DNA from: Opitutia bacterium
GTDB taxonomy: Bacteria; Verrucomicrobiota; Verrucomicrobiia; Opitutales; Opitutaceae
Assembly (NCBI GenBank): GCA_947478395.1
Contig: CANJVR010000001.1
Span: forward strand, 384,001 to 448,000
Direction: 5' to 3'
DNA: 64,000 bases
Shown: positions 14,348 to 54,404 of the stretch, piece by piece
Layout: each line of letters starts with the position of its first letter
How positions within the stretch are numbered: the first letter of the stretch is position 1
Notes under the pieces: generated by a model
The model's input: only the letters and a program-made list of their open reading frames with translations
The model's database searches: none
Told to the model about the DNA's origin: nothing
Program-made: the position numbers and the translations under genes

Positions 14348-14360
14348 GGGAAATTATTTT

Positions 14361-14447
14361 ATGATTTTTGAGTTTCGATTCTCGATTTGAGAGGACTTCG
14401 AGTCGTGTGAGGTAGACGAAAATCCAAAATCGGAATTCTAAAATTTG
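14361..14447. repeat. Inverted degenerate 7-mer arrays (TCGATTT x4 / AAATCGA x4) around a 31-nt core
   Basis: ATGATTT TTGAGTT TCGATTC TCGATTT (14361-14388) and AAATCCA AAATCGG AATTCTA AAATTTG (14420-14447). Confidence 0.75.
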
Positions 14448-44608: not shown

Positions 44609-45838
44609 TCACTCGTACCGCAACGCCTCGATCGGATCGAGCGACGCGGCCTTCCAGGCGGGATAAAGCCCGAAAATAATTCCGATCCCGCCGCAAACGG
44701 CCATGCCGATGCCGGCCCACATCCAAGGGAACGTAATCTCGGTGTGCATCACCACGGCGACCGCATTGCCGCCACCGACGCCGACGGCGACTCCGGCAAA
44801 GCCCCCGATTAAAGAAAGCGCGACAGCCTCGGCTAGAAATTGCAGGAGAACGCTCCGCTTCTTCGCGCCGATGCTTTTGCGAATCCCGATCTCCTTGGTG
44901 CGCTCAGTCACGCTCACCAGCATGATGTTCATCACGCCCACGCCCGACGCGAGCAACGCGATTGAGCTGATGATCAGCGAGCCAACTGCAACGACGTCCG
45001 CGATCTTGTTGAAGGCCTCGATCAGCGACTCGTTCGAGAAAATCTCAAAGTCGTTCAAATCCTCGGGGTGCAGGCCGCGGATCAGGCGCATCGCGCCGAT
45101 CGCTTTTTCTTGGGCCGCAGGCAGCGCTTCCTGACTTAGCGCCTGTACGTTAATGCTGATCGAGCGAAACTGCCGGCCGTAAATTGTCAGCCAGCGCGTG
45201 ATCGGGACCATCAAGAAATTGTCCGAACTGCCGCCGAACGACGTGCCCTTCGCGGCCAATACGCCAATCACCGTGTAGTTCTGCCCGTCGATGCGCACCA
45301 TTTGACCCAGCGGGTCCTCGCCGGCGAAAATCTTGTCCACAATGTCGTTTCCCAGCAGGCAAACCGGACGGGCATATTCGACATCGTCGGGGCTGAGATT
45401 GCGTCCGGCCGCGACCTCAAAATTAAACGCCGTGATGAAATTCTCATCGGTGCCGCGCAGGACGACATTGGGATTGGTCCGGCGATCCTTGTACACCACG
45501 ACCTTGCCCCAGCGACTCAGTTGCAGATTCACCCGGGCGTCTTCGCCCAGGATGTCCTTGAAGCGCGAACCGACCGCGTAGGTCAGATCGCGCCGGTTGC
45601 GATAGCGGGACGAATCCGCCGGCGAAAAACTGAACGCCGGCGTTTTGCTGACCTGAAAGCTATTTGCCCCGAGAACATTCAGCCCGGTTTCGACCGAGGC
45701 CCTCATGCCGTTGATGAAGGTCATCACCCCGATCACGGAAAACACCCCAACTCCGATCCCGAGGATCGTAAGGAACGAACGGAGTTTATTCGCCATGAGC
45801 GAGGCGAAGGCCAGGCGGAAGATTTCGGCGAGGAGCAT
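44609..45838 (-). CDS. MacB/FtsX-type ABC transporter permease
   Basis: NKLRSFLTILGI, GVMNIMLVSVTERTKEIGIRK, LDPIEALRYE; ATG at 45838. Confidence 0.95.
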   Translation of the reverse strand: MLLAEIFRLAFASLMANKLRSFLTILGIGVGVFSVIGVMTFINGMRASVETGLNVLGANSFQVSKTPAFSFSPADSSRYRNRRDLTYAVGSRFKDILGEDARVNLQLSRWGKVVVYKDRRTNPNVVLRGTDENFITAFNFEVAAGRNLSPDDVEYARPVCLLGNDIVDKIFAGEDPLGQMVRIDGQNYTVIGVLAAKGTSFGGSSDNFLMVPITRWLTIYGRQFRSISINVQALSQEALPAAQEKAIGAMRLIRGLHPEDLNDFEIFSNESLIEAFNKIADVVAVGSLIISSIALLASGVGVMNIMLVSVTERTKEIGIRKSIGAKKRSVLLQFLAEAVALSLIGGFAGVAVGVGGGNAVAVVMHTEITFPWMWAGIGMAVCGGIGIIFGLYPAWKAASLDPIEALRYE

Positions 45839-45843
45839 GGGGT

Positions 45844-47094
45844 TTATTCGTAACGCAGCGCGACGACCGGATCCAACTTGCTCGCTGACCAAGCCGGCGC
45901 GAACCCACTGAAGATTCCGGTAAACACGGAAACCACCAACCCCATCAAAACGAGACCGAGCGAAAATACCAAGGGGAACGCGGGCATCAGCACGCCGACA
46001 ACCGCCGCCATCGTCCAAGCCGTCGCGAGGCCGCCGATGCCACCGAGCAGGCAAATGGACACAGCCTCGATCAGGAACTGCAACAGGATCGTCCGCCGGC
46101 GAGCCCCCAAGGCCTTGCGCGTGCCGATCTCTTTCGTGCGCTCCTTCACGCTCACGTACGTAATGTTCATAATGCCGATCGCGCCAACGAACAGAGCGAG
46201 GCTCGTGATCACGAGCCCGGCCGTGGCGATGCCTTTTTTAATCGGATCCAATTGTTCGCGGATGATCTGCTGGCTGTTGATATCGAAATTATCCTTTTTT
46301 TCCGGGCTCAGCCGGCGAGCCCGGCGCATGATGCCCCGGAGCTCATCCTCCGCTTCCTGCTGCCGTGAGGTATCCATCTGCACCCGAATTTCGGGATTAG
46401 CGAAACGGATGGGGTAAAGGCGCGCGAACGAGTCGAGCGGCAAAAATACTTGGGAGTCCCAGCTGAAAAGTCCCAGGAAACTGCCCTGCCGTGCGGCGAC
46501 GCCCACCACGTTGAACTGCTGGTTGCGAATGCGCACCGTTTGTCCGATCGGAGATTCGTTCGGAAAAAGCGCGTCGGCCACGTCGAAACCGATCACGATC
46601 ACGTTACTCGCGTTCCGGGACTCGATTTCCGAGAAGAAGCGCCCCTCCTTCATGTCGGACTTCACAATGCGTCCAAGATCGGCACTCGTCCCGTAACTAG
46701 TGATATTGTTTACGCGATAGGCGCCTCGGATAATCGTCATGTTCGTCCCGGCGGCCGGCACCGCCAGCTTCAGGGGACCGCCGGGATGCGCGGCGATCCA
46801 ATCGTTGATCATCTGCGCTTGGTTCGGATTGATCTCAGGCCGGTTCCTCAGATTCCACCAATCCGAAACGTCGCGCCACGGCTGCCGCGAGACGTAAAGC
46901 ACGTCATCGCCAAACCCCGAAAGACTCGACTCCACCCCCGAATCGATGCCGAGAATCGCCGTGCCCATCAATGTGACCGCGACGATACCGATGATCACGC
47001 CCAGCGCGGTCAGCATCGAACGCAGCTTGTTTGCGTAAATCTGGGAGAACGCCATCCGCAGTGACTCGGAAATCTCGTAGAAGGTGCGAGTCAT
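45844..47094 (-). CDS. MacB/FtsX-type ABC transporter permease
   Basis: NKLRSMLTALG, GIMNITYVSVKERTKEIG, LDPVVALRYE. Confidence 0.95.
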   Translation of the reverse strand: MTRTFYEISESLRMAFSQIYANKLRSMLTALGVIIGIVAVTLMGTAILGIDSGVESSLSGFGDDVLYVSRQPWRDVSDWWNLRNRPEINPNQAQMINDWIAAHPGGPLKLAVPAAGTNMTIIRGAYRVNNITSYGTSADLGRIVKSDMKEGRFFSEIESRNASNVIVIGFDVADALFPNESPIGQTVRIRNQQFNVVGVAARQGSFLGLFSWDSQVFLPLDSFARLYPIRFANPEIRVQMDTSRQQEAEDELRGIMRRARRLSPEKKDNFDINSQQIIREQLDPIKKGIATAGLVITSLALFVGAIGIMNITYVSVKERTKEIGTRKALGARRRTILLQFLIEAVSICLLGGIGGLATAWTMAAVVGVLMPAFPLVFSLGLVLMGLVVSVFTGIFSGFAPAWSASKLDPVVALRYE

Positions 47095-47486
47095 CCGATT
47101 TTCAATTTTGAATTCTCGAGTTTCGATTTCTGCAGACCCGCCTGTAGCGTGCGGCGCGATGCGACCATGATCGCGGTCCGCTCATCAGCCTCGCGCAGGA
47201 ACGGTGTGACTTTTCCCCCAGGCATCAGTCCATGTTCAGCGACTAGTTCCAGCCCAAACCCGGATTCGTCCGCCTCTTCCTCGACCACGGCGAACTTCGA
47301 AATCATTTCCGCCGACGAACGTGAACGACCGGCCGCGCGGTAGTTTGAGCCCACCGCTGTTCCCGAACGGCCGAGTTGATTGGTCAGCACCCGCCCGGAA
47401 GAGGTTTCCGGCCGTGAATCGATCAAGGTCAAAACTCGCAGCGCGGAGGCCTTGGTGCGCGGCTTCATCTGGTGCTCAGTGGTCAC
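47091..47486 (-). CDS. Four helix bundle protein (23S rRNA-IVP/Avd-like family), possibly decaying
   Basis: QLGRSGTAVGSNYRAA, SKFAVVEEEADES; GTG start. Confidence 0.85.
   Translation of the reverse strand: MTTEHQMKPRTKASALRVLTLIDSRPETSSGRVLTNQLGRSGTAVGSNYRAAGRSRSSAEMISKFAVVEEEADESGFGLELVAEHGLMPGGKVTPFLREADERTAIMVASRRTLQAGLQKSKLENSKLKIG
47095..47129. repeat. 7-mer array (TCGATTT x5) at the 3' end of the four-helix-bundle gene
   Basis: CCGATTT TCAATTT TGAATTC TCGAGTT TCGATTT. Confidence 0.8.
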
Positions 47487-47488
47487 AA

Positions 47489-47502
47489 AAATCGAAAATC
47501 AC
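47489..47502. repeat. Inverted 7-mer array (AAATCGA x2) at the 5' end of the four-helix-bundle gene
   Basis: AAATCGA AAATCAC, overlapping the ATPase stop codon. Confidence 0.7.
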
Positions 47503-48233
47503 TCCACCGGATTGTCGCTCTCGATCAGGCCGTCGCGGAGACGGACGATGCGGCGGGCGTGGCGGGCGATGTCTTCCTCGTGGGTGACCACGATGATGGT
47601 GTTGCCCTGCTCGTAGAGCTGCTCGAACAACTCCATGATTTCCTCGCCGGTCTTGGAGTCCAAATTGCCGGTCGGTTCATCCGCGAGAATGATCGACGGA
47701 CTGTTGACCAAGGCGCGCGCGATCGCGACGCGCTGGCGCTGACCGCCGGAAAGTTCGTTGGGGCGGTGAAACATGCGGTCGCCCAAGCCCACGTTCTCCA
47801 GCGCGTGGCGAGCTTTCTCCAGGCGCTCGGCGCGGCCCAGCCCGGCGTAGATCAGAGGCAGCTCGACGTTGTGGAGCGCATTCGAGCGCGGCAGCAGGTT
47901 GAAAGTCTGGAAAACGAAACCGATCTCGCGATTGCGAATCTCCGCCAGTTCGTCGTCGACCATCGTCGCGACGTTTTTTTGGCTGAACTCGTAGCGGCCC
48001 GCCGTCGGCGTATCGAGACAGCCGAGCATGTTCATCAGCGTGGATTTCCCGCTGCCCGACGGGCCCATGATCGCGAGATATTCGTTGCGGTGAATCTTAA
48101 CGCTCACCCCGCGAAGCGCGTGGATGATTTCCGCACCCATCTTGTAGAGTTTCGTCACGCCCTCGATTTCGATCACGAGGGGCCCGGACGGACGCAGCGT
48201 GCGTGCACGCGGCGCAGGGGAAGAGGCGTTCAT
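47499..48233 (-). CDS. ABC transporter ATP-binding protein (MacB/LolD type)
   Basis: [28 protein letters not shown]. Confidence 0.96.
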
Positions 48234-48297
48234 AGGCGGTGGAATGCGATAAAAGAATTCGTGGCTCCCAGCCGTCGAGGGCCGGATCGCGCCGGGA

Positions 48298-49668
48298 TCA
48301 TGGCTTGATGGGCTTCGGCTTCTCGAGCGTGACCTTCATGTCGTCTTTCAACGTGCGAGTGATGACCCCGAAACTGCCGCTCACCACATCGTCGCCTGCT
48401 TTTAGACCCGATTTCACCTCGATGTGCGTCGTGTCCTGCAAGCCGGTCTCAACTTTCACCATTTTCACGACATCCCCTGACCGCACGAAAACGACCCGCT
48501 GCAGATTATCGCGGTCCGATTTCTCGGCCTGTTTTTGTTGAGCGACGTTGACGGCGGTCACCGCTCCATCGCCTTTGGTCTGGGCCGCGTTCTTGTCCCG
48601 ATCGGCCGCGACTTGCTCGACGGTCTTGTTGCCCTCGCGGGCGCGGACGGTCACGCTTTGAATCGGCACGGCGACGACGTCCTGCACCGATTTCGTCTCA
48701 ACATCCGCGTTAGCACTCATGCCGGGACGGAGCGGCGCGTCTTTGTCGAGGATCCGGATTTTGACCAGAAAATTGGTGACTTCGTCCTGCGTGTTCTGGC
48801 CGGTCACTTTTGCCGCAGAACCGATTTCTTTCACTACGGCGTCAAACTTCCGGTTCGGAAACGCATCGATGGTCACCTTTGCCTTGTCGCCGACCTTCAC
48901 GTTAACGATGTCGTTTTCGTTGATGTTCACTCGCACCTCCATGTTGGAAAGGTCCGCTACGCGCATGACCTCGGCGCCGCCGTAATTGCCCGTTCCGGCC
49001 ACGCGCTCGCCCACCTCGTTGCTGAGCGAACTCACCTTTCCGTTGATGGGCGAATAGATGACGGTCTTGGTCAGCTGGTCGCGCGCCTGGCTAAGGGAGC
49101 CTTCCGTGCGACGAATTTGGGCCTGGGCACTGTCGAGATTACCCTTGGCCACTTCGAGGGCGGTGCGCGCGGCGGCGATATCGGCGTCGGAGATCAGCTG
49201 CTTGGCAAAAAGGTCTTCGTTGCGCTTGAGGTCGTCCTGCGACTTGAGCAGTTGAGCCTTCGACTGGAGCGCGCTGGCCTTGGCTGAAACCAGCCCGGCC
49301 TCCTGCTGCTCAACCTGTGCCTGGTAGGCATCGGGTTTGATGCTGAGCAATAGGTCGCCTTTTTTGACGACAGCGCCTTCGCGGAATCCAAGTTGAATGA
49401 TCTCACCCGTCACCTCGGGCTGAATCTTTACTTCAACCTCAGGCTGAATTTTTCCAGTGGCGGAAACGATTTGAGTGATCGTTTTGATGACCGCTTTCTC
49501 GGCGGTGATCACGACGGCCGGAGTGGCGTTTTTCTTCTTAAAATAGGCGGCCGTACCGAGCCCGACGAGCAGGACGATGCCGCCCAGCACGAACCATTTT
49601 TTCGTGGATTTTTTGCGGGGAGCCGAAGCCGGGGACGCACTTTTGGATGCAGCAGGATCAAGGTTCAT
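48298..49668 (-). CDS. Efflux membrane fusion protein (MacA-like)
   Basis: N-terminal TM segment, ATGKIQP, coiled hairpin, [16 protein letters not shown]. Confidence 0.93.
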
Positions 49669-53455: not shown

Positions 53456-53588
53456 ACGGCAGATATTCGATTTCAGAGGCCTGATGCCAGCCTGGGAACC
53501 TCCTGTTCCCTCCGCGGTAAATTCCATCGTCAACCTGTTCTTCCCTAACTTCCGAATTCTGACATCTGTCCTCTGGCCTCTGGCTTCT
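53454..53588. repeat. Inverted degenerate 7-mer arrays (AGAnnnC / GnnnTCT)
   Basis: AGACGGC AGATATT CGATTTC AGAGGCC TGATGCC ... GAATTCT GACATCT GTCCTCT GGCCTCT GGCTTCT. Confidence 0.7.
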
Positions 53589-53615: not shown

Positions 53616-54356
53616 ATGTCCCGTACCGCCGCCATTCTCCTCGCTGCCGGCAGCGGCACCCGCATGGGCGGGGCCGTCACCGACAAAGTGCTTGCTCTCC
53701 TCGCCGGCCGGCCCGTCTTCGCGCACTCCGCAGCCGCGTTCGCCGCAAGCGGCATCGCGGATCTCTATGTCATCGTCTACCGCGACCAGCGCCAAATGCT
53801 CACGCTCGCGGCGCTCGCCCCCACGCCGAGTTTGCTGATCGCCGGAGGTGCCGAGCGCCAGGACTCGGTCGCCGCGGCGCTCGCGGCGCTGCCGCCCGAC
53901 ATCGCCCACGTCTTCATTCACGATTGCGCCCGACCGCTGGTCCGAGCCGAACAACTCGTAGCCTTGCACAAAATCGTCCGCCGCGAACACGCCGTCGTCC
54001 TTGCCCATCGCGTGACTGATACGATAAAAAAGCACCGTAGCGGCGGTCGTTTGCGCACGCTCGATCGCGACCGGCTTTGGGCGATGGAGACGCCCCAGGT
54101 TTTTGCCCGTGAGCTCATTTGCGCAGCTTATGCGCGTGTCGCGAAAAAAAAGCTCCGCATCACCGACGACGCGCAGGCCGTCGAGGCCCTCGATCATCCG
54201 ATCGCGCTCCTCGAAAATCCCTATCCCAACCCCAAACTGACCACCTCGGGCGATCTCAAGTACCTGGAGTTTCTGCTTTCGCACGAAGGAGAGGAAAATT
54301 CCAAACGCCAAAATTCAGGCGCCAAAGAAACGCCCACCAGCCAATCCGAAAGATGA
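53616..54356 (+). CDS. ispD: 2-C-methyl-D-erythritol 4-phosphate cytidylyltransferase
   Basis: LAAGSGTRMG, GGAERQDSV, IHDCARP, ETPQVF, TDDA. Confidence 0.96.
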   Translation: MSRTAAILLAAGSGTRMGGAVTDKVLALLAGRPVFAHSAAAFAASGIADLYVIVYRDQRQMLTLAALAPTPSLLIAGGAERQDSVAAALAALPPDIAHVFIHDCARPLVRAEQLVALHKIVRREHAVVLAHRVTDTIKKHRSGGRLRTLDRDRLWAMETPQVFARELICAAYARVAKKKLRITDDAQAVEALDHPIALLENPYPNPKLTTSGDLKYLEFLLSHEGEENSKRQNSGAKETPTSQSER

Positions 54357-54404
54357 TTTTGCCCGTGGATTTTTTTGGCGTTTAGCCGGTTGGCGTTTGA
54401 ACCT
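54297..54404. repeat. Inverted degenerate 7-mer arrays (AACGCCA / TGGCGTT)
   Basis: AATTCCA AACGCCA AAATTCA GGCGCCA ... TGGATTT, TGGCGTT, TAGCCGG, TGGCGTT, TGAACCT. Confidence 0.65.

What the first reader, a model, noticed from the sequence alone, without database searches (positions are those of the whole stretch)
47091..47502. Four-helix-bundle gene inserted in an operon and bracketed by inverted 7-mer arrays that could loop it out of the mRNA
Seen: the gene sits between the ATPase and the first permease of a MacAB-type operon. One end has five TCGATTT-type units (47095-47129, translated as its KSKLENSKLKIG tail); the other has inverted AAATCGA units (47489-47502). On the transcribed strand, GAUUUUCGAUUUU pairs with AAAAUUGAAAAUC over 13 bp, and the only non-Watson-Crick pair is G-U in that orientation. 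The stem base puts the ATPase UGA (47501-47499) a few nt from the permease AUG (47094). Established: this protein family was first found in 23S rRNA intervening sequences and is structurally related to the DGR protein Avd; its function is unknown. Inference: a small mobile or IVS-like cassette that inserts at stop/start junctions and uses the repeat stem to preserve translational coupling or to be excised from RNA.
Basis: partly seen in the sequence, partly recalled or inferred. Interest (0 to 1): 0.82.

Follow-up and report, generated by a model that had tools for sequence, protein, structure and literature searches.

The report
Decaying five-repeat-armed four-helix-bundle cassette
A small gene bracketed by mirror-image 7-base repeats sits between two efflux-pump genes; it is a worn-out copy of a cassette that comes and goes at operon junctions, and its five-unit arms are likely binding sites for the five-part ring its protein is predicted to form, which would give a large unexplained protein family and bacterial 7-base repeats a testable link.

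Summary
The gene is TIGR02436, between the ATPase and permease 1, with a 13-bp inverted stem.

At this junction, 15 of 117 family genomes carry the gene, 57 have a spacer of 40 nt or less, and others keep internally deleted cassettes. One genome has about 94%-identical copies at two non-homologous junctions with sharp ends, so the unit moves. Arms are typically five triplets at 7-nt spacing; this genome has 30 five-copy arrays but only 3 longer ones. The nearest solved relative has five chains.

This copy is decaying: its left arm is down to two units and 12 conserved residues are lost.

G-U versus A-C is 70:78 across 95 stems, and no RNA joint was seen (weak test). Coupling appears kept by the gene's own stop overlapping the permease start (18 of 28).

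The scan has noted this class before on other DNA (333 findings). I found no paper on it outside 23S rRNA.

The parts
47499..48233 (-). ABC ATPase of the MacAB-type operon; its TGA (47501-47499) overlaps the first unit of the left arm
   Evidence: PF00005
47488..47500 (-). Left arm, eroded to two GATTTTC-type units; close filled relatives carry about five
47091..47486 (-). Four-helix-bundle ORF (TIGR02436), frame intact but degenerate; its stop overlaps the permease ATG (ATGA)
47098..47128 (-). Right arm: five AAT-type triplets at 7-nt spacing (31 nt), translated as the basic tail, ending 3 nt before the permease ATG
45844..47094 (-). Permease 1 (MacB_PCD + FtsX)
44609..45838 (-). Permease 2; its junction with permease 1 is empty here (5 nt) but holds a four-helix-bundle cassette in 17 of 118 junctions scored
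48298..49668 (-). HlyD-type membrane fusion protein, first gene of the operon

Best explanation
This is a decaying copy of a small cassette (a four-helix-bundle gene between two inverted arms of about five 7-base units) that is gained, copied and lost at stop/start junctions of operons, and whose protein likely forms a five-part ring that likely binds the five-unit arms. Shown: the unit has sharp ends, occurs at non-homologous junctions, leaves gene-less armed relics, and its protein is under purifying selection in relatives but not on this branch. Inferred: the host operon likely tolerates it because ribosomes read through its ORF and right arm and stop on the next start codon. Inferred: ring-arm binding likely marks the ends for a host-supplied copying or recombination step, since the cassette encodes no known nuclease or polymerase; the many gene-less five-unit hairpins would be its non-autonomous relics. 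The moving step itself is not identified.
For: Patchy on the operon tree: 18 filled of 118 tips, 15 parsimony changes, versus 38 losses if gained once (midpoint root). Nine -4 overlaps at junction 1 and 11 at junction 2 would have to be re-created by loss. Junction 2 is filled in 17 of 118, mostly in other genomes (2 filled at both). L172 carries about 94%-identical copies at both junctions, with identity starting at TGA+arm and ending at arm+TGA, 16 synonymous versus 3 non-synonymous changes. Several protein clades with different heptamers occupy the same junctions. The window's gene groups with L227 (95/86) whose operon is only 65% identical. Internal deletions keep the gene's first codons and both arms (L192 junction 1, L135 and L178 junction 2). 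Five-unit cap: period-7 loci in G000 number 77/30/2/1 for 4/5/6/7 copies, versus 41-50/1-3/0-1/0 at periods 5, 8, 10, 11; a geometric decline predicts about 25 six-copy loci. Five is the modal arm length in all three outside sets. 22 of 23 intergenic five-unit arrays lie between co-directional genes versus 65% background. Arm type tracks protein clade. Nearest solved relative 2RLD has five chains (E 2.8e-18); all five Avd protomers contact an RNA stem-loop (bioRxiv 10.1101/2023.10.23.563531, passages). Decay: 12 conserved columns violated versus mean 2.6, maximum 9, in 119 homologs; 21 non-synonymous and 17 synonymous unique changes versus 3 and 24 for L227 (p=0.0003).
Against: No binding was tested and the fold job never finished. 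The AU test does not reject a gene tree congruent with the deep operon split (p=0.10), and several tip groups are congruent, so much inheritance is vertical. Arm-clade tracking is also expected from simple co-inheritance. Arrays persist without the gene: ATT five-unit arrays occur in 17 of 33 genomes lacking a close homolog (versus 26 of 27 with one), including G119 (41 matches) and complete G020 (10 single arrays plus 8 long pure runs), where no family member was found. With tolerant counting, four-unit arms are nearly as common and 6 of 29 left arms reach six. No co-conversion tract or target-site duplication could be resolved. Coupling in relics is thin: 6 of 14 armed gene-less junctions, and ATGA is present in 38 of 58 short alleles anyway; in other subfamilies the stop precedes the right arm. 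No relative was found in viral contigs with this subfamily's patterns.
Confidence: 0.5

Rival explanations
1. An mRNA intervening sequence: the arms pair in the transcript and RNase III (recalled to need a long double-stranded stem) cuts the cassette out without religation, splitting or tuning the operon message, as in 23S rRNA. This can coexist with mobility.
For: The Coxiella 23S IVS has a 28-bp stem with tandem heptamers upstream of the ORF and is cut by RNase III (PMC4990558, passages). Intact alleles here have stems of about 31 bp with arm-zone duplex energies of -30 to -49 kcal/mol.
Against: No sense-strand wobble bias (70:78). This copy's stem is 13 bp and AU-rich (-17.6 kcal/mol for the wider arm zones). 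No joint in two RNA runs, although contigs cannot show ends. Solo arms exist (L026; G020).
Confidence: 0.2
2. A host regulatory system rather than a selfish element: the ring is a post-transcriptional regulator of many operons through five-unit arrays near start codons, and the arms round its own gene are autoregulatory sites.
For: Strong purifying selection in relatives (dN/dS 0.06-0.10). Arrays outnumber genes and favour co-directional junctions. G020 has solo arrays 7-16 nt before starts at successive junctions, as described for TAACTGA repeats (PMC4679880, abstract and sections 15-16).
Against: Copy number runs from 0 to 19 per genome within one family; copies decay often; array-rich genomes lack the gene; different clades replace each other at one site.
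Confidence: 0.18
3. No active movement or binding: the gene was ancestral at these junctions and repeatedly lost, and the arms arise and stay mirrored through slippage and template switching.
For: Clear deletion relics; congruent tip groups and a non-significant AU test; long pure heptamer runs in G020 show slippage.
Against: Needs 36-38 losses at one junction and as many at the next; does not explain the sharp-ended L172 duplicate or the cap at five units.
Confidence: 0.12

Closest known systems
ORF-bearing 23S rRNA intervening sequences (Coxiella helix 45, PMC4990558; passages read)
   Same: Same protein family in the loop of a terminal stem of about 30 bp; tandem heptamers upstream of the ORF; ORF prone to decay.
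   Different: Here it lies in a protein-coding operon, the ORF ends on the next start codon, and RNase III excision is untested.
Avd of diversity-generating retroelements (bioRxiv 10.1101/2023.10.23.563531, passages; PMC10053308, passages)
   Same: Related pentameric four-helix-bundle barrel; all five protomers contact an RNA stem-loop.
   Different: No reverse transcriptase or template/variable repeat was seen among the neighbouring ORFs; the Avd site is a short stem-loop, not a five-unit array.
Intergenic heptamer repeats: GGGAATC inverted pairs of Xanthomonas (PMC4692102, passages and section 14); TAACTGA of Beggiatoaceae (PMC4679880)
   Same: Degenerate heptamer arrays of mostly four whole units, often in inverted pairs or just upstream of start codons.
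   Different: The text I saw links them to no four-helix-bundle gene (0 hits for the term in PMC4679880); the Xanthomonas repeats were positionally stable between two species.
REP/REPIN-RAYT and MITE systems (recalled, no call)
   Same: A few gene-bearing copies flanked by inverted repeats and many gene-less intergenic hairpins.
   Different: The cargo protein is not a known transposase; no target-site duplication was resolved.

Membership tests
TIGR02436 / PF05635 four-helix-bundle proteins | Score above the curated cut-off | tested here: met
   TIGR02436 48.5 versus 24; PF05635 25.6 versus 33.8 not reached, but the 119 homologs carry PF05635
TIGR02436 / PF05635 four-helix-bundle proteins | Homopentameric ring | tested here: inconclusive
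   Profile matches 2RLD, five chains, E 2.8e-18; own fold job did not finish
23S rRNA intervening sequence | Located inside a 23S rRNA gene | tested here: not met
   Between ATPase and permease; no Rfam match
23S rRNA intervening sequence | Terminal complementary arms enclosing the ORF | tested here: met
   13 bp here, about 31 bp in intact relatives
23S rRNA intervening sequence | RNase III excision without religation | not testable with these tools
   Only contigs of RNA runs were available; no joint seen
DGR (Avd) | Adjacent reverse transcriptase with template and variable repeats | tested here: not met
   Immediate neighbours are efflux genes; the rest of the genome was not searched for a reverse transcriptase
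Insertion sequence / MITE | Terminal inverted repeats and presence/absence at a site | tested here: met
Insertion sequence / MITE | Encoded or cognate transposase | tested here: not met
   Only the four-helix-bundle family matches the ORF; a trans-acting enzyme was not sought
Insertion sequence / MITE | Target-site duplication | tested here: inconclusive
   TGA stands at both ends but is explained by the stop and the ATGA overlap; filled/empty pairs are too diverged

The most novel reading that the evidence does not exclude
A widespread class of minimal mobile element in which an Avd-like pentamer counts five heptamer units at each end of its own cassette, directs copying into operon stop/start junctions with host enzymes, and seeds the gene-less heptamer hairpins and long 7-base repeats seen across bacterial genomes; the 23S rRNA IVS would be one landing site of it.
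Probability: 0.3. Interest if true: 0.88.

Novelty: new variant of a known kind. Interest (0 to 1): 0.58.

Why it matters
The protein family has no known function outside DGRs, and the excess of 7-base repeats in bacteria is unexplained. A five-unit arm matched to a five-part ring gives a direct binding test that could tie the two together. Arm type changes with protein clade, so a readable protein-nucleic acid code is possible. This particular copy is a poor test subject because it is decaying; intact alleles at the same junction (L227, L171, L172) are the ones to use.

Tried and rejected
G-U strand bias as evidence of selection on RNA: none. Whole-region folding: no better than shuffles. RNA evidence: two runs at small share (0.11, 0.07). 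X1 holds pieces about 99% identical in the ATPase and fusion-protein genes and one 257-nt piece inside the cassette gene (97%, depth 2.1), no piece over either arm and no joint; contigs cannot show ends, so nothing follows. Co-conversion tracts beside filled alleles: not resolved; one short run at the ATPase end of L171 only. Mantel test of gene versus operon identity: p=0.13. Metagenome pattern scan: 5 loci, none filled. Viral contigs: no relative (one subfamily alignment only). Rfam: none. Other cargo between arms in G000: none recognised in six regions inspected by eye, with no family scan. Structure prediction never returned, so no fold search was run; no complex was predicted. Literature: nine full-text searches found no description of heptamer-armed four-helix-bundle cassettes in operons; 'TIGR02436' gave 0 papers and 'PF05635' gave 1. 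Most subscription papers are outside the library and no supplements were read; the repeat-neighbour tables of PMC4692102, PMC4679880 and PMC2700814 could bear on this.

Full report
Observation. On the transcribed (-) strand the ATPase TGA (47501-47499) runs straight into GATTTTCGATTTT, a 131-aa ORF follows (47486-47091), and its last codons are five triplets at 7-nt spacing ending 3 nt before the permease ATG, whose ATGA overlaps the ORF's stop. The 13-nt inverted repeat has one mismatch, G-U on the transcript. The ORF passes TIGR02436 and falls short of the PF05635 cut-off. The operon is MacAB-type. Named homologs point to Opitutaceae. The stem alone is marginal: it ties the best of 20 shuffles in wide windows but beats 216 of 216 control genes in anchored windows.

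Genome context. G000 has four TIGR02436 genes, each between co-directional genes and each flanked by an inverted heptamer pair of its own type; two of the four stems beat all shuffles. Period-7 arrays number 40 against 3-12 for four other periods, and many form gene-less hairpins. Counting exact triplets at period 7 gives 77, 30, 2 and 1 loci with four, five, six and seven copies; other periods give 41-50, 1-3, 0-1 and 0. Of 23 intergenic arrays with five or more units, 22 lie between co-directional genes, against 65% background; 10 more fell inside calls of my rough gene finder and were left out.

The junction in relatives. One search found the ATPase in 206 of 261 family genomes and listed 149 besides G000. 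I fetched 118 of those, plus G023 and G018, already known to be filled. One lacked the permease start. Of 120 scored junctions including the window, 18 are filled, 14 are gene-less with GATTTTC-type arm remnants, 57 are 40 nt or shorter and 31 are other, about ten of them permease N-terminal extensions. Without the window and the two added genomes, 15 of 117 are filled. The next junction is filled in 17 of 118, only 2 together with the first. On the 118-tip operon tree the filled state needs 15 changes, or 38 losses from one gain. Losses are real: L192, L135 and L178 keep the gene's first codons and both arms, and L026 looks like a left arm fused to the ATG. Gains are also indicated. L172 holds about 94%-identical copies at both junctions with sharp ends. 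Different protein clades with different heptamers occupy the same junctions. The window's gene groups with one from an operon only 65% identical, though the AU test on the deep split is not significant (p=0.10). The subfamily sits at unrelated junctions in other phyla with similar arms.

The arms. In 103 cassettes (many of them kin), 95 have stems better than all 20 shuffles, 87 with period 7 and 5 with period 8, with modal length 31-32. Five units is the mode in all three outside sets, with four close behind. G-U and A-C mismatches are 70 and 78, so there is no sign of selection on the sense-strand RNA duplex. Arm type follows protein clade, which fits binding or co-inheritance equally. ATT five-unit arrays occur in 26 of 27 genomes with a close homolog and 17 of 33 without; these 60 genomes were picked by gene count and are kin. 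G119 and complete G020 have arrays and no detected family member; G020's 81 matches are 10 single arrays and 8 long pure runs.

Coupling. Among 28 full ORFs parsed, 18 end in a -4 overlap with the next start and 26 end within -7..+4. Folding predicts the start is buried in 4 of 7 intact filled alleles. I infer that read-through, not looping out, keeps the permease translated in this subfamily. Six of 14 armed relics keep a coupled mini-ORF, too few to rely on.

This copy. The left arm has lost about three units and the start codon differs from the relatives' ATG. The protein breaks 12 columns conserved in at least 85% of 119 homologs (others: mean 2.6, maximum 9). Its branch has 21 non-synonymous and 17 synonymous unique changes against 3 and 24 for L227, while pairs of relatives show dN/dS 0.06-0.10. 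Eight cluster members differ only slightly, several at further conserved positions and three keeping a cysteine lost here. The six listed differences in a low-depth RNA contig are all non-synonymous. The frame stays open, as expected if only read-through is still needed (inference).

Mechanism and literature. The subfamily profile matches 2RLD, five chains. Avd protomers all contact an RNA stem-loop (passages). The Coxiella 23S IVS has heptamers, a 28-bp stem and RNase III cleavage (passages). Gene-less heptamer arrays are described in Xanthomonas and Beggiatoaceae, with no link to this family in what I read; Geobacter multicopy heptamer elements are also in print (passages). The idea that the ring reads the arms appeared in an earlier scan note marked as partly fallen; my five-unit count preceded the note that mentions five units. 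I commit to a mobile cassette whose pentamer likely binds its five-unit arms (0.5). Binding and the moving step are untested.

Verdict. The feature is real: a new variant of the ORF-bearing intervening sequence, placed in mRNA operons. The scan has noted the class many times and I did not find it in print in nine searches. This copy is a relic. Interest 0.58, for the class-level binding hypothesis.

Noticed in passing
window 14357-14444: Gene-less hairpin of the same GATTTTC/GAAAATC type with a short loop.
   Followed up: partly
window 53474-53588: Gene-less CAGAGGC/TCTGGC-type hairpin between two co-directional genes; the same heptamer type flanks the four-helix-bundle gene at C2:840628.
   Followed up: partly
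window 54295-54400: The 3' end of the 53616-54356 ORF has AAAATTC-like units and a possible inverted partner just downstream.
   Followed up: no
G000 C1:234734-234902: Nested hairpins of two heptamer types, one inside the other.
   Followed up: no
L248-L251 (G020 C1:1133823-1142867): Solo five-unit arrays of two types at successive junctions of one operon, several 7-16 nt before start codons, in a genome with no detected four-helix-bundle gene.
   Followed up: partly
G020 C1:716876 and seven other loci: Pure ATTGGTC runs of up to about 21 units; possibly arms released from the five-unit limit, but G119 keeps five-unit arrays without the gene.
   Followed up: partly
L099, L100, L102, L105, L087: Some clades have 8-base instead of 7-base arm units.
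   Followed up: no
L109, L110, L113, L122, L137, L168, L211, L221: Permease 1 carries a hydrophobic N-terminal extension of about 50-70 aa in several relatives.
   Followed up: no
L146, L182, L071: Armed gene-less junctions share a 25-codon mini-ORF unrelated to the four-helix-bundle start.
   Followed up: no
window 44609-49668 versus genus relatives: The window's operon falls in a different deep clade from most same-genus operons, suggesting operon replacement.
   Followed up: partly
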